This document shows, in pieces, positions 15,221 to 54,000 of a DNA stretch of 64,000 nucleotides; positions within the stretch are counted from its first letter, which is position 1, and every line of letters starts with the position of its first letter. This DNA is from Candidatus Shapirobacteria bacterium (GTDB taxonomy: Bacteria > Patescibacteriota > Microgenomatia > UBA12405): the NCBI GenBank assembly GCA_041659325.1, contig JBAZYN010000001.1, forward strand, positions 494,819-558,818, written 5' to 3'. A program made the position numbers and the translations under genes. The notes beneath the pieces were generated by a model that saw nothing but the letters and a program-made list of their open reading frames with translations, did not search any database and had not been told where the DNA came from.

Positions 15221-15584
15221 ATTTAATACAAACGGTTGCTTCAGGCTTAATTGCTAACCGGTCTGTATCTATCATCTTCCCGCACTTCTCGCAAGTTCCA
15301 TACTTCCCAATCCTTAGATAAGTCAAAGCCTTTCTGACCTGAACAATCTGTTTTTTAATAAAATTAGCCTTTACCACCGTTTCAAAATGCCCCACCTGTT
15401 CATCCACATCCTCCTCAATCGAATTTTCCGTCGACCTGGCTGCATCCATAAACGGATCAGACTGCTTTATGTCTTTCTCTCTGCGCTTTAAGCGGACAAT
15501 CTCTCCCTCAAGGAAATGTTTTATCGGTGCTACCAATCTGCCGGGAAATTTAATACTCTCCGCCGGCTTCGTTTCTGATTTCAT
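15198..15584 (-). CDS. DksA/TraR-family C4 zinc-finger protein
   Basis: C-terminal CEKCGKMIDTDRLAIKPEATVCIKCEK four-cysteine finger. Confidence 0.7.
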   Translation of the reverse strand: MKSETKPAESIKFPGRLVAPIKHFLEGEIVRLKRREKDIKQSDPFMDAARSTENSIEEDVDEQVGHFETVVKANFIKKQIVQVRKALTYLRIGKYGTCEKCGKMIDTDRLAIKPEATVCIKCEKESEF

Positions 15585-16249
15585 GATTTCTTCCTTTTTA
15601 TCTTAACCAATAACGGATCAAGCACTTCTCCAAGAATAAACAATCCTCCCAGATTTATCAAGCCGGCAAACAAAAGTACCCCAAAAAAAACCCACTTGTT
15701 AATTATCAAAAAATATACCGCAAGGAGCATGAAAAACACCATATTGGCAAAGAAAAACCTAAATCCCTTCCGGCCACTTCTATACCAAACAAAGGACCGA
15801 TACCGATTTTTCACCCACGTCGAAATCAAAAGACTCAAAACAAATATTGCCGCTATCGCCCCCTCCGTTACCCCAATCTTCCCAAAATCCACCCCCGCCA
15901 ACCATACCCCCATCACCAAAATCAACATATTGTTGGTCATATCTTCAAGAAATGGCCATAATTTCCAACTATACTTCTGCGCTAGCACGGTTACAATCAT
16001 TAGTAATATCACATAACCACCGGCCAAATTTAATCCCCGATTTTTATAAAATATTACCCAATCACCAAGCGTACTCCACTCCCCCCAATTAGCCAGTCCA
16101 TAAGTTACCCTCCCCCCTATCAAAAAAGCCAACACCGCCAACCATGAAAAAGTAATCAAATCATCAACCCGATAACTATCTCTCAAATTTCTCCAGGTTA
16201 AATACAGAAACAATACAATTCCGATTATTGATAAGAACGGAAAAACCAT
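15581..16249 (-). CDS. probable prolipoprotein diacylglyceryl transferase (Lgt-like)
   Basis: Polytopic membrane protein; GGRVTYG and YKNRGLNLAGGYV loosely match Lgt motifs; operon context with lspA. Assignment is tentative. Confidence 0.45.
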   Translation of the reverse strand: MVFPFLSIIGIVLFLYLTWRNLRDSYRVDDLITFSWLAVLAFLIGGRVTYGLANWGEWSTLGDWVIFYKNRGLNLAGGYVILLMIVTVLAQKYSWKLWPFLEDMTNNMLILVMGVWLAGVDFGKIGVTEGAIAAIFVLSLLISTWVKNRYRSFVWYRSGRKGFRFFFANMVFFMLLAVYFLIINKWVFFGVLLFAGLINLGGLFILGEVLDPLLVKIKRKKS

Positions 16250-16323
16250 ACCCTATTATAATCTATATTCATCGCACAAATTGCGATCCCTTCATAGCGC
16301 CAAAGAACGAAATTGTATCTGTA

Positions 16324-16477
16324 CGTCATTGCGCTTGTCCGCCTTTGGCGGAAGGAGTAAAACGACGTGGCAATCTTTACAGAATTTGACTATACAAATC
16401 TCTCCACTCCGGGTTAATGCAATTGATTATGTCTAACGTTAAAGATTGCCACAGTCAATCCTTCCTTCGCAATGACG
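16324..16477. mobile_element. MITE-like element copy B (154 bp; TIR CGTCATTGCG / CGCAATGACG)
   Basis: Perfect 10-nt terminal inverted repeats. Internal CCGCCTTTGGCGG palindrome. Inverted GACGTGGCAATCTTT / AAGATTGCCAC modules. Confidence 0.55.
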
Positions 16478-16532
16478 CGAATCATCTGGTGCTCGTTTTT
16501 GGAAAAATTCGAACGCATTTCAAACAAAATTG

Positions 16533-17612
16533 TTAAAGTGTTAGGTCTTTAAACAAAATTATATTATTTTTTTGACCACGAATCAAAACAAATACTTTGT
16601 CTAATAAATCACCATGCTGAAGTACCATTTCTTTCTGTTGAAAAGTCATTTTATCAAAAATGTCTTTGGTGATTACAATCTTTTCTGTCTCTTCTGGCTT
16701 CCATCCACCCATAACGTGTGATTCAACATACCAACCTCCTGGAAATAGTTTTTGGTAGACTCTTGCCAATTCCGCTCCTTCCCAATTAAAAACATGGCTT
16801 TGAATTATTACATCGGGATGCATCCCCAAGCCACCTTGAGATCCTGAATCAACGTCACAAAAAATTGTTTTTCTCTCAAAAGCTCTTCGAGAACCAATCA
16901 AATAAACTCCAAGGTCGGAGAAAAATGGCTGTTTCGCAGTTAAGTCTTCAATCCAATCGTCAGTTAAAATGCCATACAACACAGAGGGATCTTCGGCAAT
17001 ATCCATTGCTCTTGTTCCCAATTTTGCTTCCAACGCGCGTATCTGAACTTCTGGTCTCTGTATTGTCCCTCTGCCCCATAACTCACCAGTTTGAAGAAAA
17101 TCAATTAACCTTTCAACAGAATAAATATTTTTTGCAACATATGTCTGACCTTGTATTTTATCTTCCGTGGTACTTAATTGTTCTTCTGCCAATACCCTAT
17201 CAACATTGCCTTCTGCCATTAGTCTTGAGACTATCGCTTCTTTTTTTCTTGGAATATTAGCGGAAGCAAATATATCTGCCTGTTCAAGCGCTTGTTGTCG
17301 TCTGGCTACTGGAGTTAACGTAAGAACGTCTTGAAATAATAAACCCGGCGCGGCGTCAATCTCCTGCCACCAACTTTTTAATTTGGCGTCAATCGCCATT
17401 TCTACCGACCATTTTAAACGCAGTTCATCAGGAGGAAGAAGATTTTTTGCCCATCCGGCATATTGATCCAAAAATGCTATTCCATTTTGTTCAACCCTTT
17501 TGTCATCCATATTGAATAGTATATTGCAAATTAAGAAGTAACTGCTTTCTGTCAGCACCCTTTGCACATAGATTTTTCCCTGTTCCGTTTCTAACCTTGG
17601 GCATATTCCCAC
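16533..17612 (-). CDS. hypothetical protein with a candidate Pol-beta-type nucleotidyltransferase motif (LIGSRRAFERKTIFCDVDSG)
   Basis: 359-aa ORF. AT-richer than its neighbours. hGS-x(11)-DxD pattern about 100 aa from the C-terminus. Lies between MITE copy B and tRNA-Leu. Confidence 0.6.
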   Translation of the reverse strand: MGICPRLETEQGKIYVQRVLTESSYFLICNILFNMDDKRVEQNGIAFLDQYAGWAKNLLPPDELRLKWSVEMAIDAKLKSWWQEIDAAPGLLFQDVLTLTPVARRQQALEQADIFASANIPRKKEAIVSRLMAEGNVDRVLAEEQLSTTEDKIQGQTYVAKNIYSVERLIDFLQTGELWGRGTIQRPEVQIRALEAKLGTRAMDIAEDPSVLYGILTDDWIEDLTAKQPFFSDLGVYLIGSRRAFERKTIFCDVDSGSQGGLGMHPDVIIQSHVFNWEGAELARVYQKLFPGGWYVESHVMGGWKPEETEKIVITKDIFDKMTFQQKEMVLQHGDLLDKVFVLIRGQKNNIILFKDLTL

Positions 17613-17728
17613 AAAAATCTACCCACACAAACAGTTGGTCCATGATATTCTTCCTCGACAACATCTAACTGTCCACGATATAAATCCGTCATATAAAAAA
17701 TTTATGTTTTATGATACGATTTCCTTTT

Positions 17729-17816
17729 TGGTGCCGAAGGACGGAATCGAACCGTCACGGTTTTTAAGGCCACAGGTTTTTGAGACCTGCGTGTCTACCA
17801 ATTCCACCACTTCGGC
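17729..17816 (-). tRNA. tRNA-Leu(CAA), type II with long variable arm, CCA encoded
   Basis: Acceptor GCCGAAG/CTTCGGC (7 bp). Anticodon stem CAGGT/ACCTG with loop CTCAAAA. T-arm GACGG-TTCGATT-CCGTC. Discriminator A then CCA. Confidence 0.85.
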
Positions 17817-17841
17817 AAATTTCAAACTTTATTTTATTATT

Positions 17842-17898
17842 GTCGGCCTCGGTAGTCTACCAATGAAATTTATCCGCCGGCAGGCGGACCACTTCGGC
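17842..17898 (-). pseudogene. tRNA-Leu 5'-half duplicate interrupted by a CCGCCTGCCGGCGG palindrome insertion
   Basis: GCCGAAGTGGT ... ATTGGTAGAC copies the acceptor and D-arm of the adjacent tRNA, with a 23-nt palindromic insert. No anticodon or T-arm. Confidence 0.35.
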
Positions 17899-17950
17899 TT
17901 TCAAACTCTTCTATTATCTCACGACAAACCCCTAATTTTAAACCCAAAAC

Positions 17951-18014
17951 AATTACTAATTACAGATTACAGATTACTGATTACAGATTACTGATTACAG
18001 ATTACCAATTACCA
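17951..18014. repeat. tandem heptamer array (AATTACT AATTACAG ATTACAG ATTACTG ATTACAG ATTACTG ATTACAG ATTACCA ATTACCA)
   Basis: Nine 7-nt units immediately 3' of dnaB. Confidence 0.6.
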
Positions 18015-18016
18015 TC

Positions 18017-19321
18017 TCACCCTTTCTTCTCCACATCAAAAAAACTCACCTGCTTACCGTTAAAGTACAGATTAAAAGTTCCAGTCGGACCATTCCTGTG
18101 TTTTTCGATCCCACAGGTCACAATTTCCCGAACCTCCTCGTCCTCCCGGTGTAAAAACAGTACCACGTCAGCATCCTGTTCAATACTTCCCGATTCCCGC
18201 AGATCCGACAGTCTCGGTTTCCCCCCCCTGGCTTCCATTGCCCGGGAAAGTTGAGCCGCCGCCACAATTGGCACCTTTAGCTCTCTTGCCAAATTTTTTA
18301 ATCCCTGGGAAATTTCCGACACCTCCTGAACCCGATTATCTCTGGTAGTTCCATGCATCAGTTGCAAATAATCAACCACAATAAATCTTATCCCCTTATC
18401 CGACTGCAGTCTCCTTGCCTTCGTCCTCAGTTCCGTCACCGTCAGCCCGGGAGTATCGTCAATATAAAGCGGGGCCTCAGCTAGTACCCCCATTGCCTCC
18501 GACAACGACGCAAAGTCATCTTCCGACAGTTGTCCAGTCTTTAGCTTCCAGGCGTCAATCAGCCCCTGACGAACTAGCAATCTGTCTACTAGTTCCTCCT
18601 TGCTCATTTCCAAAGAAAATACACACACCGGTTTCTTTTCTTCAACCGCCACATGTCTGGCAATATTCAAAACAAAAGCCGTTTTTCCCACTCCCGGCCT
18701 GGCTGCCAAAATTATTAAATTACTATCCTGCATTCCGGCAAGCATTCCATCCAACGACTTAAAACCGGTCCCGATTCCCCTCAAACCACTTCCCAATTTC
18801 TGCAACTCATCCAGGCGGTCAAAACTGGCCGTCAAAACTTCCTTCAGCGAAGATGGCACCGATTTCAAATGTTTTTGCGACAGCGAATATATTTCCTGCT
18901 CGGCATAATCCAAAAGCTCCTCCGACTTCAATCCATCATCAAAAGCTCTCTCGGAAATCCTGGCCGCCGCCGAAATCAGCTCCCTTTTAGCCGATAGCGA
19001 CTTAATAATCCGACCATAACTCTCAACATTGGCCGAAGTCGGCACCTCGTTTGCCAACCTGGCCAAAAACGTCTTCCCTCCCACCCTCTTTAACAACTTA
19101 AGCTCCTTAAGCCTTTCCGAAACAGTCACGATGTCTAAGGGCTCCCTCTTTTCATACAAATCAATCATTGCCTGATACACCTGGGCATAGTTTTCATTGT
19201 GAAAATGTTCGGGACGAAGAAAATCCGACACTTCAACAATCCCATCGTTATCTATCAAAATCGACCCCAAAACCGATATTTCGGCTTGCTCAGAACTCGG
19301 CGGTATCTTTAATGTATCCAT
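18017..19321 (-). CDS. dnaB: replicative DNA helicase DnaB
   Basis: N-terminal DnaB domain. Walker A ARPGVGKT, Walker B and arginine finger; SEISQGLKNLARELKVPIVAAAQLSR. Confidence 0.95.
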   Translation of the reverse strand: MDTLKIPPSSEQAEISVLGSILIDNDGIVEVSDFLRPEHFHNENYAQVYQAMIDLYEKREPLDIVTVSERLKELKLLKRVGGKTFLARLANEVPTSANVESYGRIIKSLSAKRELISAAARISERAFDDGLKSEELLDYAEQEIYSLSQKHLKSVPSSLKEVLTASFDRLDELQKLGSGLRGIGTGFKSLDGMLAGMQDSNLIILAARPGVGKTAFVLNIARHVAVEEKKPVCVFSLEMSKEELVDRLLVRQGLIDAWKLKTGQLSEDDFASLSEAMGVLAEAPLYIDDTPGLTVTELRTKARRLQSDKGIRFIVVDYLQLMHGTTRDNRVQEVSEISQGLKNLARELKVPIVAAAQLSRAMEARGGKPRLSDLRESGSIEQDADVVLFLHREDEEVREIVTCGIEKHRNGPTGTFNLYFNGKQVSFFDVEKKG

Positions 19322-39293: not shown

Positions 39294-40934
39294 CTAATAC
39301 AATTGCTCTAATTTATCTTTTAATGTTTGTTTAAACAAAGCTGTATCAATTCCGTTAACCTTACAGTTCCCGTCCATATCGGCCTGTAAGTAGCCACCGT
39401 CATCTACCTCGTCAATTCTGGTTGCGGCTGATTTCACATAAGAGTAATCAAGACCGTCAACCACCCCATCGGGTACTCCAACCGTCGCTCCGGTCACATC
39501 ACCCGGCATTACCGGATATCTCGAAAAATCATAAAGTGGTGTTGTGTCTGCATCATCGGTCAGAGCTAAATTACCCCATGTCGAAGCAAAATATTCAGAT
39601 TGGTTATCAATCCCATACTTCACCTGAAGATGCTTTGGTCCCTTAAAAAATACGGCTATTCCCTCATAATATGGGAAGTCCGTCAAAACTACTTGGCCTC
39701 CATAAACAACCCTCTCGCTTATTGACGTGTTCAGTACCGGTATCTGCCCGGGATATATCTTAATAGTCCCCTCCGGTGCCAAAACTGTCACCGTCACCGG
39801 CCAATTTACCGCACACATATTGCCCGCCAGTACATCCCTGTAAGAAATCATGTATTTCAAAATCGGCCAACCGGCTGTCATTGGTGGCGTCTCTGTCGGC
39901 AAAAGAGTGTTGGTTGGCCTTAACGTATTTGTCGGCCTCGGTGGCGTCTCTGTCGGCACATCGGCCAGTGGTGTTTCTGTGGGCATCAGGGTATTTGTTG
40001 GTTTTAGTGTATTCGTTGGTCTCACTGGCGTGTTAGTTGGGACGAGGGTATTGGTCGGTCTCAATGTATTCGTTGGCTTCACTGGTGTTTGTGTAGGCCT
40101 CAGCGTATTGGTGGGAATAAGCGTTCCTGTCGGTCTCAATGTATTCGTTGGTCTCACTGGTGTGTTAGTTGGGACGAGGGTATTGGTCGGTCTCAATGTA
40201 TTCGTTGGCTTCACTGGTGTTTGTGTAGGCCTCAGCGTATTGGTGGGAATAAGCGTTCCTGTCGGTCTCAATGTATTTGTTGGTTTTGGTGTAATAGTCG
40301 GGGTCACTTCCGACTGGCTGCCATCTTCAATCACATAACTCATCCCGGTAACTCTATCTATCGACATCGCCGTATCGGTAGTCGTTGAATTACCCGACAC
40401 AACCGATTTACTCTTATCAAGAGTTATCATCCCCGTCGTTGTCGATCCGCCCGCCGTAAACATCAATTTGGCCACATTTACCACTCCGGAGCTCAAATCC
40501 GCTTCCGGCTTGTTAGAAGTCACCGATAAATTAATACATCTATTAATCCCCGCAGGGTAATTGCTGCCACCAACCGCTACCATCATCGACAATGGCACCT
40601 CATTAAACGAGCTCGTTTCTTTATTTACAATTATCACTTTGTCCAAATCAGTCTCATCAACCGAAAGCTTAGTACTGTCATAACAAACCTGAGTGGTTAC
40701 CCCCACTACTTTCGCCTTTTCCGACCCACCCGTTACGTTCCCCGTTTCAACCCACAACTGCACTGGAAAAGCCTCATTCATTTTCAATACTCTGTTCTCG
40801 GGTAAAAGAAATAATTTTGATCCGGCAAAGTACGCCCCGCTTCTGGTATCCCTGCTCCTGCCGGTCAAAAACACTGCCCCGGCAAGAGCGATCAGCAAGA
40901 CCACCCCAAAAACAATGGTCCCTGCCTTTTTCAT
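39294..40934 (-). CDS. secreted protein: cohesin-like N-domain, Thr/Pro-rich tandem repeats, C-terminal type-I-like dockerin
   Basis: Signal peptide. PTNTLRPTGTLIPTNTLRPTQTPVKPTNTLRPTNTLVPTNTPVR repeated. Dockerin duplicated segment GVPDGVVDGLDYSYV ... ADMDGNCKVNGIDTALF. Confidence 0.7.
   Translation of the reverse strand: MKKAGTIVFGVVLLIALAGAVFLTGRSRDTRSGAYFAGSKLFLLPENRVLKMNEAFPVQLWVETGNVTGGSEKAKVVGVTTQVCYDSTKLSVDETDLDKVIIVNKETSSFNEVPLSMMVAVGGSNYPAGINRCINLSVTSNKPEADLSSGVVNVAKLMFTAGGSTTTGMITLDKSKSVVSGNSTTTDTAMSIDRVTGMSYVIEDGSQSEVTPTITPKPTNTLRPTGTLIPTNTLRPTQTPVKPTNTLRPTNTLVPTNTPVRPTNTLRPTGTLIPTNTLRPTQTPVKPTNTLRPTNTLVPTNTPVRPTNTLKPTNTLMPTETPLADVPTETPPRPTNTLRPTNTLLPTETPPMTAGWPILKYMISYRDVLAGNMCAVNWPVTVTVLAPEGTIKIYPGQIPVLNTSISERVVYGGQVVLTDFPYYEGIAVFFKGPKHLQVKYGIDNQSEYFASTWGNLALTDDADTTPLYDFSRYPVMPGDVTGATVGVPDGVVDGLDYSYVKSAATRIDEVDDGGYLQADMDGNCKVNGIDTALFKQTLKDKLEQLY
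40021..40284. repeat. near-perfect 132-bp tandem duplication inside the dockerin-protein CDS
   Basis: Unit beginning CTCACTGGCGTGTTAGTTGGGACGAGG recurs 132 bp later with only a few substitutions. Confidence 0.7.
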
Positions 40935-40935
40935 T

Positions 40936-43900
40936 TTAATTTCCTCCCGAAGTCATCAACTCGCTAAAATACTTGTGCCACAAAGAATAGTCAAAGACAT
41001 TAACGACACCATCGCACTTTCCGTCACTACCGGTAAAGTCGGCGTCCCAGTTTGTACTTACTTCCGGCACTCCGGCACTCAGGTCTACGAACTCTCGTCG
41101 CCATACGGCATAATCGGTTACATCAATCGAACCGTCGCAATTGGCATCACCTTTTGACTTACCTTTAAAGGTAGGTTTCGGTACATTAGAGCCCGTACAG
41201 TTATCATCTACATCTCTTACGAAACCATTCATCACATAGCCAGGTACAAACCACCGATACTCCCCTCCGGTATTCAGCTTATAACATTCAAAAGTGGTTG
41301 GGCATTCCTTACAACTTGAAGCTGCACCTTCTGCTACCGTAATCCAGTGTATACAATTTGTACTGTTACAGTTCCTGCCGCTTACCGGTTCATAATACCC
41401 CGGGCAGCTATTAGTCTGGTTCTGATACAGTTTCCCATCCGCCGTACACAATTGAGAACACTGATTGTTACAGGCCGATTTTAACTCTACTGCAAAAACC
41501 CCCACTTCGTTCATCTGATAGGCCGCTTTCGGATAATACGCTCCGCTAGCACCACCAATCGCAAAGCTATTCGCGCTTGGTTGTGCCCCTACCGATGAAA
41601 CCTTGCTCATATAAATTATTCCCCAATTAGAAACGGTTCCGGTCATATTGACGATTTCACCTTTTTTAACGGTGATATTCCCGTTTGCATTATTCAAAGT
41701 CAAACCGTTACATGAGAAATTCTGGTTGCAGGTCGCCGTCGGAATCGGTGTCAGAGACGGTACCGGCACTCCGGTCGGGATCCCGCACCTACAGCTCAAA
41801 TCACCGGCACAACTTGGATTCCGGCAAAAATTCCCCGGTTTCCCCTGGCTATCAAAATAACCCGAGGTACACACCAATCCTAAACTGCGATCACACATAT
41901 CCTGACCCTGGATCATTGTGCAGGATTCATTGCACCCAGCCGCAGCGGTGGCAACGTTAAATGTCGCATTATCGGTCGACGCACACGACACAAAGCCCGT
42001 GCACGGCAGACTGCCTCCCTTATAACTACAGGCCGGATTACCGGTACATTTACCCACCGGTGCTGTCGGCACATCACAATGCGCTACATAGTTGCCAGCC
42101 GGCAAACCCGCAAACTGAAAACTATCATTGCAAGCTGCCCCATTAATGCTATTGCACTGTTTAACTCTGGTGTAATAGAACCCTTCTTCTCCGGGAACAC
42201 TGGAATTAGCTGCCAATGGCGCCGGCGACATTTTCGAAGTATCAATCTGTTTATAATCCCTTCTTTCTATCCACAATCTCACCGGATAAGTCCCCGAAGC
42301 GTTAGCATTACCTTCATAAGTAATGGTTATTGCCCCTCCCGGAGCTGATTGAGGAATCAAGCCGGTAATTCGGCAATATGCTTTACTTTCCGTCCCCGTC
42401 GGTACCACCGTCGGGACCACACTGCCCGAACAACATCGATAAGTCGGCGCCCAACCGCAGCCATTGGCCGCCGCTGTCGCTGTATCGCCAAATCTGGTAC
42501 AAGCCTTACCGCAATTAGTAGTGCAGTTGGCCTCGTTGGAATAGCATCCGCCGGTACAACTTGTCGGCGCGCTACCTGTCGGCACCGTTGTTGGTCTGAC
42601 TGTTGGCGTTACAGAAGAGCCGCAACTCGAAGAACTAACACAGCTAGTCGCTCCATTAAAGCTCCTTGCTCCATCCCATCTGGTACAATACACCCCATCA
42701 TTTCTCAAAAATTGGTTAGCAGGACAGCTAGTACTCACACCCGGGTTAGATACAAAACCAGTGTTGCAGCTCGAACCCGCTCTACACCAATTCATTCCCG
42801 ACCACCCGCACGACATATCCCAAACACTATCCTGACAACTGGGCGCTATAGTCGGGGCAGGCGTCGTCCCGGAACAATTCGTGGATGTAATACAAGTAGA
42901 CGAACCATTAAAGCTCTTAGCCCCATCCGATCTGGTACAGTAAGTCCCCTGATTTCTCATAAACTGATTCGGGGCACAACCGGTGGCAACCAACGGCCCG
43001 GAAATATAACCGGTATCACAACTGGTCCCAACTTTACACCAATTTAATCCCGTCCATCCACAGGCCATATCCCAAGTACCATTAGCCTGACAGCTTCCGG
43101 GAGCCGAGGTTACTGTAGCTGCTTTCACCGTAAACTTAATAAGCAGTTGGCAATTGTTACTGCCTGATTCTGCCATTCTAAAACTGGCTACTCCACCCGT
43201 ACCCGAAAATTTTACCGTATTACTATTCCATGCATCGACTACTTTCCAACTTACCCCCTCTACACTTCCTCCTACGGTCACCTTAACATCACCACCCCCG
43301 CCACCTACATTTAATCTTTTGACTTTAAAATACCTACCACCCGGGTTAGAAAATCCACATGTTCCGGTTGAACTAGTATTACCGGGGTTCTCCCAAGATT
43401 CAAATGAACCGCTGGTTGATTGAACCGTTATTTTTACTCCGTTTCCATCAGACAGCACTTTTCCTGCACTGTCCACTACTATCCCCCCGTAATCAACATA
43501 ATGCCCCTCGCCGGTTCCGCCACACGACCACCAGTCAACATAGTTATTGTTGCTATCACAACACGCCTGTTTATCAGGATTCCCGTCAGCCGAAGGACAG
43601 CTGTGGTAAGAATTGGGTATTGCCGTAGGAGTCAAAGTCGGACCCACGGTTGGAACCATAGTTGGCACTCTAGTCGGAGCCACTGTCGGTCTTACCGTCG
43701 CAGTCGGAACCACGGTTGATCTTTTACAATACCCCGAGCTAGTAGTGCTGCTACAAACAAACCCGCTACAACACCTATTATCAGAGTCACAATAATCACC
43801 ATCACAAGTATACTGCGGAGTCGGTGTTCTAGTGGGAACCACCGTCTTGGTCGGTGTAACCGTCGTTCTGGTTGGCGTTGCCGTTACCCTAATAGTTGGA

Positions 43901-44406
43901 GTAGAAGTCCCATACGGCTTTACTGTCGGCTTTACGGTCGATGTCGGAGACGTTGTAGATGTATATTTGCAACAATTTTGTCCCGTTGGACACCATCCCG
44001 ACCCTTCTCCGATAAATGTTTTTCCCGCAACTCCATAATTCAAACTACAAGCTTTATAATTATCCATACACATTTGAGACAAACCAGCGCTCTCGCAATG
44101 TTGGGTCGGAGTATTAGTCGGTCTCAGAGTGTCCGTCGGTACTGGCCTTATACAATATTCCTCACCATATGGGTTACCGGGAGACGTCTGGCAGACTAAA
44201 CCGGCACAACAATTATTGTATCTTGAGTCACCACTGACACACCCACGATCCTGGGCTATACAAGCACCGCTTGTTGGTGTTACTGCTGGCTCCGACGGCA
44301 TTGCCGCCCTGTTTCTAATATCCTGGTTCTGTTGGCTTAATTTGGTAACCATCGGCAGTGCCACTGCCATTATCACCAAACCTATAATCAATGGTATCTG
44401 AGCCAT
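40936..44406 (-). CDS. giant secreted Cys-rich multi-domain protein with C-terminal dockerin (ORF extends to 44517; probable start at the MAQIPLIIG signal peptide)
   Basis: Signal/TM. Thr-rich linkers. Two copies of a 70-aa Cys-rich module (WDMxCGWxGxNWC ... NQFxRN ... YCTR). C-terminal dockerin pair DANCDGSIDVTDYAVW / SDGKCDGVVNVFDYSLW. Confidence 0.75.
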   Translation of the reverse strand: MAQIPLIIGLVIMAVALPMVTKLSQQNQDIRNRAAMPSEPAVTPTSGACIAQDRGCVSGDSRYNNCCAGLVCQTSPGNPYGEEYCIRPVPTDTLRPTNTPTQHCESAGLSQMCMDNYKACSLNYGVAGKTFIGEGSGWCPTGQNCCKYTSTTSPTSTVKPTVKPYGTSTPTIRVTATPTRTTVTPTKTVVPTRTPTPQYTCDGDYCDSDNRCCSGFVCSSTTSSGYCKRSTVVPTATVRPTVAPTRVPTMVPTVGPTLTPTAIPNSYHSCPSADGNPDKQACCDSNNNYVDWWSCGGTGEGHYVDYGGIVVDSAGKVLSDGNGVKITVQSTSGSFESWENPGNTSSTGTCGFSNPGGRYFKVKRLNVGGGGGDVKVTVGGSVEGVSWKVVDAWNSNTVKFSGTGGVASFRMAESGSNNCQLLIKFTVKAATVTSAPGSCQANGTWDMACGWTGLNWCKVGTSCDTGYISGPLVATGCAPNQFMRNQGTYCTRSDGAKSFNGSSTCITSTNCSGTTPAPTIAPSCQDSVWDMSCGWSGMNWCRAGSSCNTGFVSNPGVSTSCPANQFLRNDGVYCTRWDGARSFNGATSCVSSSSCGSSVTPTVRPTTVPTGSAPTSCTGGCYSNEANCTTNCGKACTRFGDTATAAANGCGWAPTYRCCSGSVVPTVVPTGTESKAYCRITGLIPQSAPGGAITITYEGNANASGTYPVRLWIERRDYKQIDTSKMSPAPLAANSSVPGEEGFYYTRVKQCNSINGAACNDSFQFAGLPAGNYVAHCDVPTAPVGKCTGNPACSYKGGSLPCTGFVSCASTDNATFNVATAAAGCNESCTMIQGQDMCDRSLGLVCTSGYFDSQGKPGNFCRNPSCAGDLSCRCGIPTGVPVPSLTPIPTATCNQNFSCNGLTLNNANGNITVKKGEIVNMTGTVSNWGIIYMSKVSSVGAQPSANSFAIGGASGAYYPKAAYQMNEVGVFAVELKSACNNQCSQLCTADGKLYQNQTNSCPGYYEPVSGRNCNSTNCIHWITVAEGAASSCKECPTTFECYKLNTGGEYRWFVPGYVMNGFVRDVDDNCTGSNVPKPTFKGKSKGDANCDGSIDVTDYAVWRREFVDLSAGVPEVSTNWDADFTGSDGKCDGVVNVFDYSLWHKYFSELMTSGGN

Positions 44407-44590
44407 GCCCAAATTTTCTCTAAAATTAAAAAATCCAATTATCTTCCGTATTTTTGGGCTCATTTTCTGTTTTTTTATATAAAAATATACGCAAATACTA
44501 ATAGAAAAGTAAAACACTTGGCATCACCTGAGTCAATACGTCAAATGTTAAAACACCCAATAATCATTACTTTTCTTCTATACTTAAACT

Positions 44591-45967: not shown

Positions 45968-45968
45968 G

Positions 45969-46108
45969 CGTCATTGCGATCCGCCAACTGGCGGAGTGGC
46001 AATCCCTGCCTGCCGGCAGGCAATCTTTACAGGATTAAAATAGTCAAGCTGTTTCAAGATTGCGGAGCCTGTCCCGAGAAACGAGGGATCGTTTCTCCTC
46101 GCAATGAC
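45969..46108. mobile_element. MITE-like element copy C (140 bp; TIR CGTCATTGCGA / TCGCAATGAC)
   Basis: Begins 2 nt after the GH stop codon. Internal CCGCCAACTGGCGG, GTGGCAATC and CCTGCCTGCCGGCAGGCAATCTTTAC modules. Confidence 0.55.
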
Positions 46109-53893: not shown

Positions 53894-54000
53894 CGTCATT
53901 ACGATCCGCCAACTGGCGGAGTGGCAATCATTACAAGACTTAGTTAGTCAAGTTGTTTCAGAATTACTTCTCCCGACGTAACGTCGGGATCGCAATGACG
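53894..54000. mobile_element. MITE-like element copy E (107 bp; TIR CGTCATTACGATC / GATCGCAATGACG)
   Basis: Fills the convergent gap between the ATPase gene and topA. Contains CCGCCAACTGGCGGAGTGGCAATC and a CCCGACGTAACGTCGGG hairpin. Confidence 0.55.

What the first reader, a model, noticed from the sequence alone, without database searches (positions are those of the whole stretch)
16324..17900. Small island between lgt and dnaB: MITE copy, AT-rich gene with a nucleotidyltransferase-type GS...DxD motif, tRNA-Leu and a disrupted tRNA duplicate
The 359-aa ORF (16533-17612) is more AT-rich than its neighbours and contains LIGSRRAFERKTIFCDVDSG. That fits the hG[GS]-x9-13-Dh[DE] signature of Pol-beta-fold nucleotidyltransferases (as in cGAS/DncV-like or minimal-NTase enzymes), here about 100 aa from the C-terminus with a 230-aa unknown N-terminal region. 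It is flanked by a complete MITE copy on one side and tRNA-Leu(CAA) plus a tRNA 5'-half duplicate on the other, which is a typical integration hotspot layout. This is a candidate defence or toxin-type accessory gene, possibly a lone NTase from a CBASS-like or NTase/HEPN-like system.
Basis: partly seen in the sequence, partly recalled or inferred. Interest (0 to 1): 0.55.

Follow-up and report, generated by a model that had tools for sequence, protein, structure and literature searches.

The report
Orphan gene in tRNA-Leu hotspot
A real but function-unknown gene, found in only two places in public sequence data, sits in a variable spot beside a leucine tRNA gene of a Shapirobacteria genome, and its proposed nucleotidyltransferase identity has no support beyond a chance-level motif.

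Summary

The ORF is an intact accessory gene that looks horizontally acquired.
- It is missing from 20 syntenic Shapirobacteria loci. In 11 of them the dnaB to lgt-like gap is only 143-225 bp and holds just the tRNA.
- Its GC3 is 0.30, against 0.465 ± 0.053 for the window's genes.
- A search over about 15 billion proteins found only itself and one 30%-identical homologue, which sits in an unrelated context.

The nucleotidyltransferase (NTase) reading is not supported.
- Pfam, NCBIfam, PADLOC, PHROGs and PDB sequence and profile searches give nothing at E ≤ 10.
- The AlphaFold models are unusable (pLDDT 33 and 40).
- The motif regex matches 2.6% of ordinary proteins. The homologue does not match it (IGT...DGD), and the canonical trailing hydrophobic residue is absent.
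- The motif region is nevertheless the family's most conserved block (GVYLIG[ST]xxxFxRxTIFxDxDSGSxxG), so it is probably an active site of unknown fold.

No integrase, partner gene or significant bracketing att repeat is present. The interval is a cargo hotspot: relatives carry GIY-YIG genes, a PIN toxin gene with a small upstream ORF, an ABC transporter or other orphans there.

The hotspot and insertion reading is supported. The NTase and defence reading is not. Interest is modest.

The parts
15581..16249 (-). Flanking conserved gene: a 222-aa multi-pass membrane protein, only weakly Lgt-like.
   Evidence: No Pfam hit. NCBIfam gives Lgt N-terminal similarity at E 0.0012, 18 bits. The gene is syntenic with dksA-lspA-rluD in 20 relatives.
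16295..16334 (-). Candidate degenerate tRNA-Leu 3'-end remnant (ATTTCGTTCTTTGGCGCTA against ATTCCGTCCTTCGGCACCA). It is not statistically supported.
   Evidence: It is the best nhmmer hit of a 21-sequence tRNA-Leu profile in the masked interval, but E is 0.26. Smith-Waterman against shuffles gives p 0.14-0.5.
16324..16478 (.). MITE-like non-coding repeat. It has 10-bp perfect terminal inverted repeats, an internal CCGCC-TTT-GGCGG hairpin and a 13-bp inner inverted repeat.
   Evidence: Searches show three full copies aligned. The CCGCC N3-5 GGCGG hairpin occurs 6 times in the window against 0.02 in shuffles. No target-site duplication was seen.
16533..17612 (-). Orphan accessory gene of 359 aa from GTG (annotated as 325 aa from the ATG at 17510). 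It has an N-terminal helical region of about 170 aa and a C-terminal alpha/beta region of about 150 aa.
   Evidence: Searches find only itself and P0002 (30% identity, E 6e-38). Similarity to P0002 runs upstream of the annotated ATG, to 17585. GC3 is 0.301. No tblastn match exists in 20 syntenic loci.
16830..16910 (-). Most conserved block of the family: GVYLIGSRRAFERKTIFCDVDSGSQGG.
   Evidence: 17 of 27 residues are invariant between the two family members, against 30% overall.
17729..17816 (-). tRNA-Leu(CAA), complete, with encoded CCA.
   Evidence: ARAGORN and Rfam RF00005 at 59.9 bits. It is present in the same interval in all 20 relatives, but in either orientation.
17855..17898 (-). tRNA-Leu 5' fragment: nt 1-11, a 24-nt hairpin-containing insert, then nt 16-24. 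The hairpin plus T-run looks like the dnaB terminator.
   Evidence: Sequence comparison and terminator-like call. The same insert (CCGCC-N3-4-GGCGG-ATAAAYTYCA) sits at the same tRNA position in L002, L004 and L024, with a variant in L023.
17952..18012 (.). Heptamer tandem array (ATTACAG/ATTACTG)n between the dnaB stop codon and the tRNA fragment.
   Evidence: Similar arrays occur at 12 or more other intergenic sites in the window.
18017..19321 (-). Flanking conserved gene dnaB (replicative helicase).
   Evidence: Pfam DnaB_C at 3.8e-97 and DnaB N-terminal domain at 2.8e-32.

Best explanation
The 1.77-kb dnaB to lgt-like interval is an expanded copy of a variable hotspot around tRNA-Leu(CAA) in a Candidatus Shapirobacteria genome.

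**The gene.** ORF 16533-17612 is a real, intact, horizontally acquired single-gene cargo. It belongs to a protein family with only two known members. It encodes a soluble two-part protein: an N-terminal helical region and a C-terminal alpha/beta region.

**The conserved core.** The most conserved element is a predicted beta-strand, then G[ST], a short helix, a second beta-strand, and then a DxDSGSxxG loop. An invariant Glu follows 42 residues later.

**Inferred mechanism (not shown).** This acidic loop probably binds a divalent metal and a phosphorylated or nucleotide substrate. The protein would then be a small enzyme of accessory, possibly conflict-related, function. It cannot be assigned to the Pol-beta nucleotidyltransferases or to any defence system with present evidence.

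**The other features.**
- The MITE-like element is one copy of a genome-wide repeat family and lies 55 nt downstream of the ORF stop codon.
- The tRNA 5' fragment is an old feature shared between species at this locus, not a scar of the ORF's arrival.
For: **Real gene**
- It is similar over its full length to P0002 (30% identity, E 6e-38).
- The ORF is intact.

**Insertion and foreign origin**
- The order mbl-dnaB-[tRNA-Leu]-lgt-like-dksA-lspA-rluD-lytR is conserved in 20 loci. The ORF has no tblastn match in any of them.
- In 11 loci the dnaB to lgt-like gap is 143-225 bp and holds only the tRNA.
- GC3 is 0.301 against 0.465 ± 0.053, the lowest of 46 ORFs. It matches the composition of the homologue's contig (GC3 0.29).

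**Hotspot**
- Nine relatives have expanded gaps with different cargo.
- GIY-YIG genes occur in L001, L002, L018, L023 and L024.
- L019 carries a PIN toxin gene with a small upstream ORF, and L023 an ABC transporter.
- L002 and L006 carry other orphan ORFs.

**Rarity**
- Only two family members turned up in 1.84e9 cluster representatives of about 15e9 proteins.
- A profile search of the 5.8e9-sequence set added nothing.
- Metagenome, viral, phage and plasmid scans added nothing.

**Conserved core**
- 17 of 27 residues are invariant in the GVYLIG...DSGSxxG block.
- No His or Cys is invariant anywhere, whereas D219, D221 and E263 are.

**tRNA fragment is old**
- The same hairpin insert sits at the same tRNA position in four other species.
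Against: - The function is inferred only from conservation pattern and low-confidence secondary structure (pLDDT 33 and 40).
- The relatives are distant (Lgt-like protein 27-38% identical), so absence from them does not date the insertion.
- Low GC3 could reflect low expression rather than foreign origin.
- No population data exist. The only other contig carrying the gene is identical to the window.
- A metal-binding enzymatic role is a guess. The protein could be non-enzymatic.
Confidence: 0.75

Rival explanations
1. The C-terminal domain is a divergent minimal Pol-beta-fold nucleotidyltransferase. G206-S207, D219/D221 and E263 would be the hG[GS], [DE]h[DE]h and h[DE]h motifs. It would act alone as a toxin or defence enzyme that nucleotidylates a target or synthesises a signal.
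For: - The spacing G[ST]-x11-DxD-x41-E is invariant in both family members.
- The order of predicted elements, helix-strand(G[ST])-short helix-strand(DxD)-helix-strand(E)-helix, resembles the alpha1-beta1-alpha2-beta2-alpha3-beta3-alpha4 core described for NTase-fold proteins. That description is from my knowledge of Kuchta et al. 2009 and was not checked here.
- NTase-fold families are notoriously divergent, and a two-sequence profile has little reach.
Against: - No hit to any NTase family in Pfam or NCBIfam, and none to CD-NTase or MNT models in PADLOC, at E ≤ 10.
- The PDB single-sequence search gave only two weak DUF2059 matches (E 0.41), and the profile search gave none at E ≤ 10.
- The regex is at chance level (2.6%) and the homologue does not match it (IGT, DGD).
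- The DxD lies at the end of a hydrophobic strand and is followed by SGS, not by hydrophobic residues.
- No HEPN, effector or other partner gene is present.
- The secondary structure comes from unusable models, and Foldseek returns nothing below E 0.88.
Confidence: 0.15
2. The ORF arrived as cargo of the same tRNA-Leu-targeted replacement process seen in relatives. There, a full tRNA-Leu copy, with or without a GIY-YIG gene, lies between fragments of an older tRNA copy (L024 with the gene, L004 without). ORF359 would occupy the GIY-YIG position. This concerns the route of acquisition and is compatible with the best explanation.
For: - L024 reads: 5' fragment with hairpin, full tRNA, GIY-YIG gene, 3' fragment with hairpin, lgt.
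- The window reads: the same 5' fragment with hairpin, full tRNA, ORF359, MITE, a possible 3' remnant, lgt.
- The best tRNA-profile hit in the masked interval falls exactly where this model predicts.
- GIY-YIG genes recur in this interval in 5 relatives.
Against: - The 3' remnant is not significant (E 0.26; p 0.14-0.5).
- The window has no GIY-YIG gene.
- The 5' fragments co-vary with each species' own tRNA. That fits local duplication or gene conversion better than a shared moving cassette.
- The only homologue of the ORF is not next to a tRNA on its 3.5-kb contig.
Confidence: 0.25
3. The ORF is a decaying or functionless remnant that happens to remain open.
For: - It lacks about 40 N-terminal residues present in P0002.
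- No clear ribosome-binding site is visible upstream of either candidate start.
- Its codon usage is atypical.
- It has been seen in one population only.
Against: - The 1,080-bp frame is open with no frameshift.
- Conservation to P0002 is collinear to within 5 residues of the C-terminus, and the motif blocks are intact.
Confidence: 0.08
4. It is a classical integrase-mediated genomic island inserted at the tRNA 3' end.
For: - It is adjacent to the 3' end of tRNA-Leu.
- Its base composition is atypical.
Against: - No integrase or recombinase ORF lies in the interval.
- No significant direct repeat of the tRNA 3' end exists.
- The cargo is a single 1.1-kb gene.
Confidence: 0.03

Closest known systems
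Pol-beta-fold nucleotidyltransferases (minimal NTases/MNT, NTP_transf_2, CD-NTases)
   Same: Both family members keep G[ST]-x11-DxD and a downstream invariant Glu. These fall in a predicted strand-helix-strand-helix-strand order.
   Different: - No profile, PDB or fold-search match.
- The second motif is DVDS or DGDS, at the end of a strand rather than its start, with no trailing hydrophobic residue.
- The homologue has G-T rather than G-[GS].
- A 170-aa helical domain precedes the putative core instead of following it.
- There is no HEPN or CBASS effector partner.
tRNA-adjacent genomic islets or integration hotspots
   Same: It sits next to a tRNA gene, a partial tRNA duplicate is present, the cargo differs between species, and the composition is atypical.
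   Different: - No integrase is present.
- The duplicate is a 5' fragment on the side of the tRNA away from the cargo.
- No significant bracketing att repeat exists.
- The cargo is a single gene.
Small free-standing GIY-YIG genes (PF01541) at the same locus in other Shapirobacteria
   Same: They occupy the same dnaB to tRNA-Leu to lgt-like interval, with the same hairpin-split tRNA fragments.
   Different: The window has no GIY-YIG gene, and ORF359 is unrelated in sequence. Homing activity of these proteins is untested.
MITE or REP-like intergenic repeats
   Same: The element is 155 bp with perfect terminal inverted repeats and internal hairpins. It has several copies in the window and no coding capacity.
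   Different: No target-site duplication and no cognate transposase were identified. The copies differ widely in their internal sequence.

Membership tests
Pol-beta-fold nucleotidyltransferase superfamily | Significant sequence-profile match to an NTase family (Pfam clan families such as NTP_transf_2, or NCBIfam equivalents) | tested here: not met
   0 families at E ≤ 10 in Pfam and NCBIfam for the ORF, and 0 at E ≤ 1 for P0002. The PDB single-sequence search gave only two weak DUF2059 matches at E 0.41, and the profile search gave none at E ≤ 10.
Pol-beta-fold nucleotidyltransferase superfamily | hG[GS] motif conserved across the family | tested here: inconclusive
   The window has IGS and P0002 has IGT. 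The Gly is invariant and the second position is Ser or Thr.
Pol-beta-fold nucleotidyltransferase superfamily | [DE]h[DE]h motif at the start of a beta-strand | tested here: not met
   The sequences are DVDS and DGDS. The middle residue is Gly in P0002 and the trailing residue is Ser in both. The strict regex is not matched, and the loose regex is at chance frequency of 2.6%.
Pol-beta-fold nucleotidyltransferase superfamily | Third carboxylate (h[DE]h) on a later beta-strand | tested here: inconclusive
   An invariant E263 lies in YVE[SA], 42 residues after D221. The strand assignment comes only from low-confidence models.
Pol-beta-fold nucleotidyltransferase superfamily | alpha/beta sandwich NTase fold | tested here: inconclusive
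   AF2 gives pLDDT 33 for the single sequence and 40 for the two-sequence alignment. The best Foldseek PDB hit is E 0.88 and no hit is an NTase.
CBASS (CD-NTase plus effector) | CD-NTase (SMODS) domain and an adjacent effector gene | tested here: not met
   PADLOC gives 0 hits at E ≤ 10. The neighbours are the tRNA, a repeat element, the Lgt-like gene and dnaB.
HEPN/MNT toxin-antitoxin | Adjacent HEPN partner, with a small (about 100-150 aa) MNT protein | tested here: not met
   No second ORF lies in the interval, and the protein is 359 aa with a large N-terminal domain. No invariant His is available for an Rx4-6H motif.
Integrase-mediated tRNA island | Integrase gene, and direct repeats of the tRNA 3' end bracketing the island | tested here: not met
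   There is no integrase ORF. The best 3'-end repeat candidate has E 0.26 and p at least 0.14.
MITE-like repeat (the 16324-16478 element) | Short non-coding element with terminal inverted repeats and multiple genomic copies | tested here: met
   It has 10-bp perfect TIRs. There are 3 full copies and about 4 partial copies in the window.
MITE-like repeat (the 16324-16478 element) | Target-site duplication and a related autonomous transposon | tested here: not met
   No duplication abuts the TIRs (sequence read). No transposase was sought beyond the window.

The most novel reading that the evidence does not exclude
ORF359 and P0002 define a previously unseen, extremely rare enzyme family with a catalytic core that is NTase-like or otherwise metal-dependent. 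The gene would move as single-gene cargo into a tRNA-Leu locus that, in Shapirobacteria, is repeatedly remodelled by a tRNA-gene replacement process involving small GIY-YIG nucleases and tiny GC-rich palindromic hairpins that invade the leftover tRNA fragments.
Probability: 0.12. Interest if true: 0.6.

Novelty: new member of a known kind. Interest (0 to 1): 0.3.

Why it matters
As it stands, this is one more orphan accessory gene in a tRNA-adjacent variable spot of a CPR genome. It is useful mainly as a caution that a short NTase regex is not evidence.

The gene would matter if its conserved acidic core proved to be a new catalytic fold or a highly divergent NTase. It would then be a single-gene conflict factor in organisms whose defence repertoire is poorly known.

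The surrounding locus may be the more instructive part. It shows recurrent GIY-YIG genes, tRNA fragments split by conserved hairpins, and flipping of the tRNA orientation. Together these could reveal how tRNA genes are replaced in reduced genomes.

Tried and rejected
**Profile libraries for the ORF**
- Pfam, NCBIfam, PADLOC and PHROGs returned nothing at E ≤ 10.

**Homologue searches**
- The word-indexed search found only itself for both family members and for their profile.
- The full phmmer over 1.84e9 representatives found one homologue.

**Searches for more family members**
- Peptide-pattern scans of the metagenome and viral collections found none.
- A degenerate core-motif DNA pattern gave 16 metagenome loci. 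All were chance matches by tblastn.
- tblastn against phages and plasmids found none.

**Structure**
- AF2 on the single sequence gave pLDDT 33, and on the two-sequence alignment pLDDT 40.
- Foldseek against PDB gave no hit below E 0.88. I ran no further search on a model this poor.

**Ideas set aside**
- A bracketing tRNA 3' repeat. I noticed two candidates by eye (16487-16520 and 16295-16313), but neither beats shuffles or reaches nhmmer significance.
- A Lon-like Ser-Lys protease reading (DSGS ... GGWKP). This is my own motif-level idea, from memory. No Lon sequence was available in the held data and the PDB profile search was empty, so I dropped it as being as weak as the NTase motif.
- HAD, Toprim, GT-A, aspartic-protease and PD-(D/E)xK readings of the DxD/DSGS block. 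I considered these from memory and rejected them on spacing or missing partner residues. They were not tested.

**Literature**
- Searches on GIY-YIG with tRNA genes in CPR bacteria, and on Shapirobacteria, found nothing relevant.
Full report
**What is at the coordinates**

The window comes from a Candidatus Shapirobacteria (CPR/Microgenomates) metagenome-assembled genome. The ORF's annotated product is NCBI 'hypothetical protein WC841_02775', on a 573,898-bp contig.

On the minus strand the order is:
- dnaB, 18017-19321
- a heptamer tandem array, 17952-18012
- a tRNA-Leu 5' fragment, 17855-17898
- tRNA-Leu(CAA), 17729-17816
- the ORF, 16533-17612
- a MITE-like element, 16324-16478
- a 222-aa membrane protein, 15581-16249

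dnaB is certain (Pfam DnaB_C at 3.8e-97). The 'lgt' label is weak. There is no Pfam hit, and only an 18-bit NCBIfam match to the N-terminal part of Lgt (E 0.0012). The gene does sit beside dksA and lspA.

**The repeat element and the tRNA fragment**

The MITE-like element has perfect 10-bp terminal inverted repeats (CGTCATTGCG / CGCAATGACG), an internal CCGCC-TTT-GGCGG hairpin and a 13-bp inner inverted repeat.
- Two other full copies (about 45968-46108 and 53895-53999) and several partial copies share the termini and the blocks GGCGGA...GGCAATCTTTACAG...TCGCAATGAC.
- The CCGCC-N3-5-GGCGG hairpin occurs six times in the window, against 0.02 expected.

The tRNA duplicate is real. It holds GCCGAAGTGGT (tRNA nt 1-11, 11/11), the 24-nt insert CCGCCTGCCGGCGGATAAATTTCA, and TTGGTAGAC (nt 16-24, 9/9). 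The hairpin with its T-run scores as a terminator-like site just downstream of dnaB.

**Is the ORF an insertion?**

I fetched dnaB loci from GTDB species representatives.
- Twenty Shapirobacteria-type loci keep the order mbl-dnaB-[tRNA-Leu CAA]-lgt-like-dksA-lspA-rluD-lytR.
- In eleven of them the dnaB to lgt-like gap is 143-225 bp and holds only the tRNA. In the window it is 1,767 bp.
- The ORF has no tblastn match in any of these loci.
- Its GC3 is 0.301, the lowest of 46 long ORFs in the window (mean 0.465, sd 0.053). Its GC is 0.386 against 0.443.

Nine relatives also have expanded gaps, each with different content:
- small GIY-YIG genes in L001, L002, L018, L023 and L024 (Pfam PF01541 at E 1e-15 to 1e-16 for two of them);
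- a PIN toxin gene preceded by a small antitoxin-sized ORF in L019;
- an ABC transporter in L023;
- orphan ORFs in L002 and L006.

One caveat applies. These relatives are distant (Lgt-like protein 27-38% identical), so the insertion cannot be dated.

**What is the protein?**

Profile libraries and solved structures give nothing.
- Pfam, NCBIfam, PADLOC and PHROGs return nothing at E ≤ 10.
- PDB sequences return nothing meaningful.

Homologue searches find one relative.
- A full phmmer over 1.84 billion cluster representatives of about 15 billion proteins finds only the protein itself and P0002. P0002 is 398 aa, from a 3.5-kb Logan contig of run SRR22388041, 30% identical, E 6e-38.
- P0002 likewise has no Pfam or NCBIfam match at E ≤ 1 and no other relative in the word-indexed search.
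- A two-sequence profile finds nothing more in the 5.8-billion set or in PDB.
- Metagenome, viral, phage and plasmid scans add nothing.

P0002's context differs. Its downstream neighbours are an uncharacterised 520-aa membrane protein and a MacA/HlyD-type adaptor. That contig has GC3 of about 0.29-0.32, like the window ORF and unlike the window's own genes.

Similarity to P0002 continues upstream of the annotated ATG, to position 17585. The GTG start at 17612 (359 aa) is therefore better supported than the 325-aa call.

**The NTase claim**

The peptide IGS-x11-DVD is present, but three points weaken it.
- The loose signature hG[GS]x9-13Dh[DE] matches 2.6% of 611 ordinary proteins and 2.4% of shuffles of the query. 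One hit per 64-kb window is expected.
- The canonical form with a hydrophobic residue after the second acid is not met. The only homologue reads IGT...DGDS and does not match even the loose form.
- The two Asp residues come at the end of a hydrophobic stretch (TIFCDVD) and are followed by SGS. In NTases, from my own knowledge, they open the strand.

Structure prediction could not settle the fold. AF2 gave pLDDT 33 for the single sequence and 40 for the two-sequence alignment. Foldseek against PDB gave no hit below E 0.88.

One thing survives. The block GVYLIG[ST]xxxFxRxTIFxDxDSGSxxG is the family's most conserved stretch (17 of 27 invariant, against 30% overall).
- D219, D221 and E263 (325-aa numbering) are invariant, while no His or Cys is.
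An acidic, probably metal-binding, active site is my inference.
- An NTase fold remains possible, at about 15% in my estimate, but it is untested rather than supported.

No partner gene (HEPN, CBASS effector) and no integrase is present.

**How the gene got there**

The tRNA 5' fragment lies upstream of the tRNA, on the opposite side from the ORF. It therefore does not bracket the ORF.

It is also old. L002, L004 and L024 carry the same insert (CCGCC-N3-4-GGCGG-ATAAAYTYCA) after tRNA nt 11. L023 has a variant of it, and L001 carries a fragment without this first insert. In every case the acceptor-stem sequence tracks that species' own tRNA.

In L024 the layout is: 5' fragment, full tRNA, GIY-YIG gene, hairpin-split 3' fragment, lgt. 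The window would match this if a 3' remnant lay next to lgt.
- The best tRNA-profile hit in the masked interval does fall there (16299-16334).
- But it has E 0.26, and Smith-Waterman scores do not beat shuffles.
- I keep this as a 25% rival for the route of entry, not a finding.

A second contig carrying the gene (Logan run SRR18595301) is identical to window 16448-17760. It breaks inside the tRNA and the MITE, so it adds no population information.

**Verdict**

- The hotspot and insertion reading is supported.
- The NTase, CBASS or HEPN reading is not supported.
- The gene is an intact, horizontally acquired orphan with a conserved acidic core and unknown fold.
- Interest is modest at 0.3. 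The locus-level behaviour of tRNA-Leu in this clade is the more unusual thing seen.

Noticed in passing
L001, L002, L004, L023, L024 (dnaB to lgt-like interval); window 17855-17898: Beside the intact tRNA-Leu(CAA) lie partial tRNA-Leu copies split by GC-rich palindromes. One is CCGCC-N-GGCGG-ATAAAYTYCA after nt 11. The other is CCTGCCTGCCGGCAGGCAGG after nt 24 or so, or in the T-arm. In L023 and L001 a small GIY-YIG ORF starts directly after the fragment's anticodon-stem sequence. The fragments co-vary with each species' own tRNA acceptor stem.
   Followed up: partly
L001-L026 and L074, tRNA-Leu between dnaB and lgt-like: The orientation of tRNA-Leu(CAA) relative to dnaB flips among species: same strand in 10 loci, opposite strand in 10. 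This holds even for nearly identical tRNA sequences in minimal 140-230-bp gaps (for example L005 and L009 against L007 and L074), while the flanking genes stay fixed.
   Followed up: partly
window 46006-46019: The palindrome CCTGCCTGCCGGCAGG sits inside one MITE-like copy between two GCAATC repeats that are single in the other copies. The same palindrome splits tRNA fragments in relatives. It may be a tiny mobile hairpin.
   Followed up: no
window 11822, 17952, 33630, 46162, 47264, 47697, 48351, 48859, 50605, 56098, 57386, 60829: Heptamer tandem arrays of the ATTACAG / ATTACCA type ('GATTACA' repeats), 3-11 copies each, recur at a dozen intergenic sites. Different heptamer arrays occupy the equivalent spot in relatives (L019, L024, L074).
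   Followed up: partly
window 16249 and the lgt-like starts in L004, L006, L007, L010, L020, L024: A TATAAT/TAAAAT-like box lies only about 6-8 nt upstream of the ATG of the lgt-like gene in the window and in several relatives. This suggests a leaderless transcript.
   Followed up: no
window 16299-16334 versus tRNA-Leu of relatives: The MITE terminal repeat (GCGCAATGACG) aligns with the variable-arm sequence (cAGCAATGTCATGG) of the tRNA-Leu type found in relatives. The inner GTGGCAATC resembles GTGGCAGCAATG of the same tRNA. This could be chance (nhmmer E 0.26) or a hint that the repeat family derives from a tRNA.
   Followed up: no
window 39969-40284: A 132-bp (57-bp sub-period) tandem repeat at 98% identity lies inside the 1,193-aa ORF at 40939-44517, or its neighbour at 39297-40934. 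It was not examined.
   Followed up: no
L081 1238-1342: Between the ORF's only homologue and the downstream 520-aa membrane-protein gene lies a perfect long palindrome (TTGTTACATTGTTTTAAAACAATGTAACAA). It could be a terminator or an operator.
   Followed up: no
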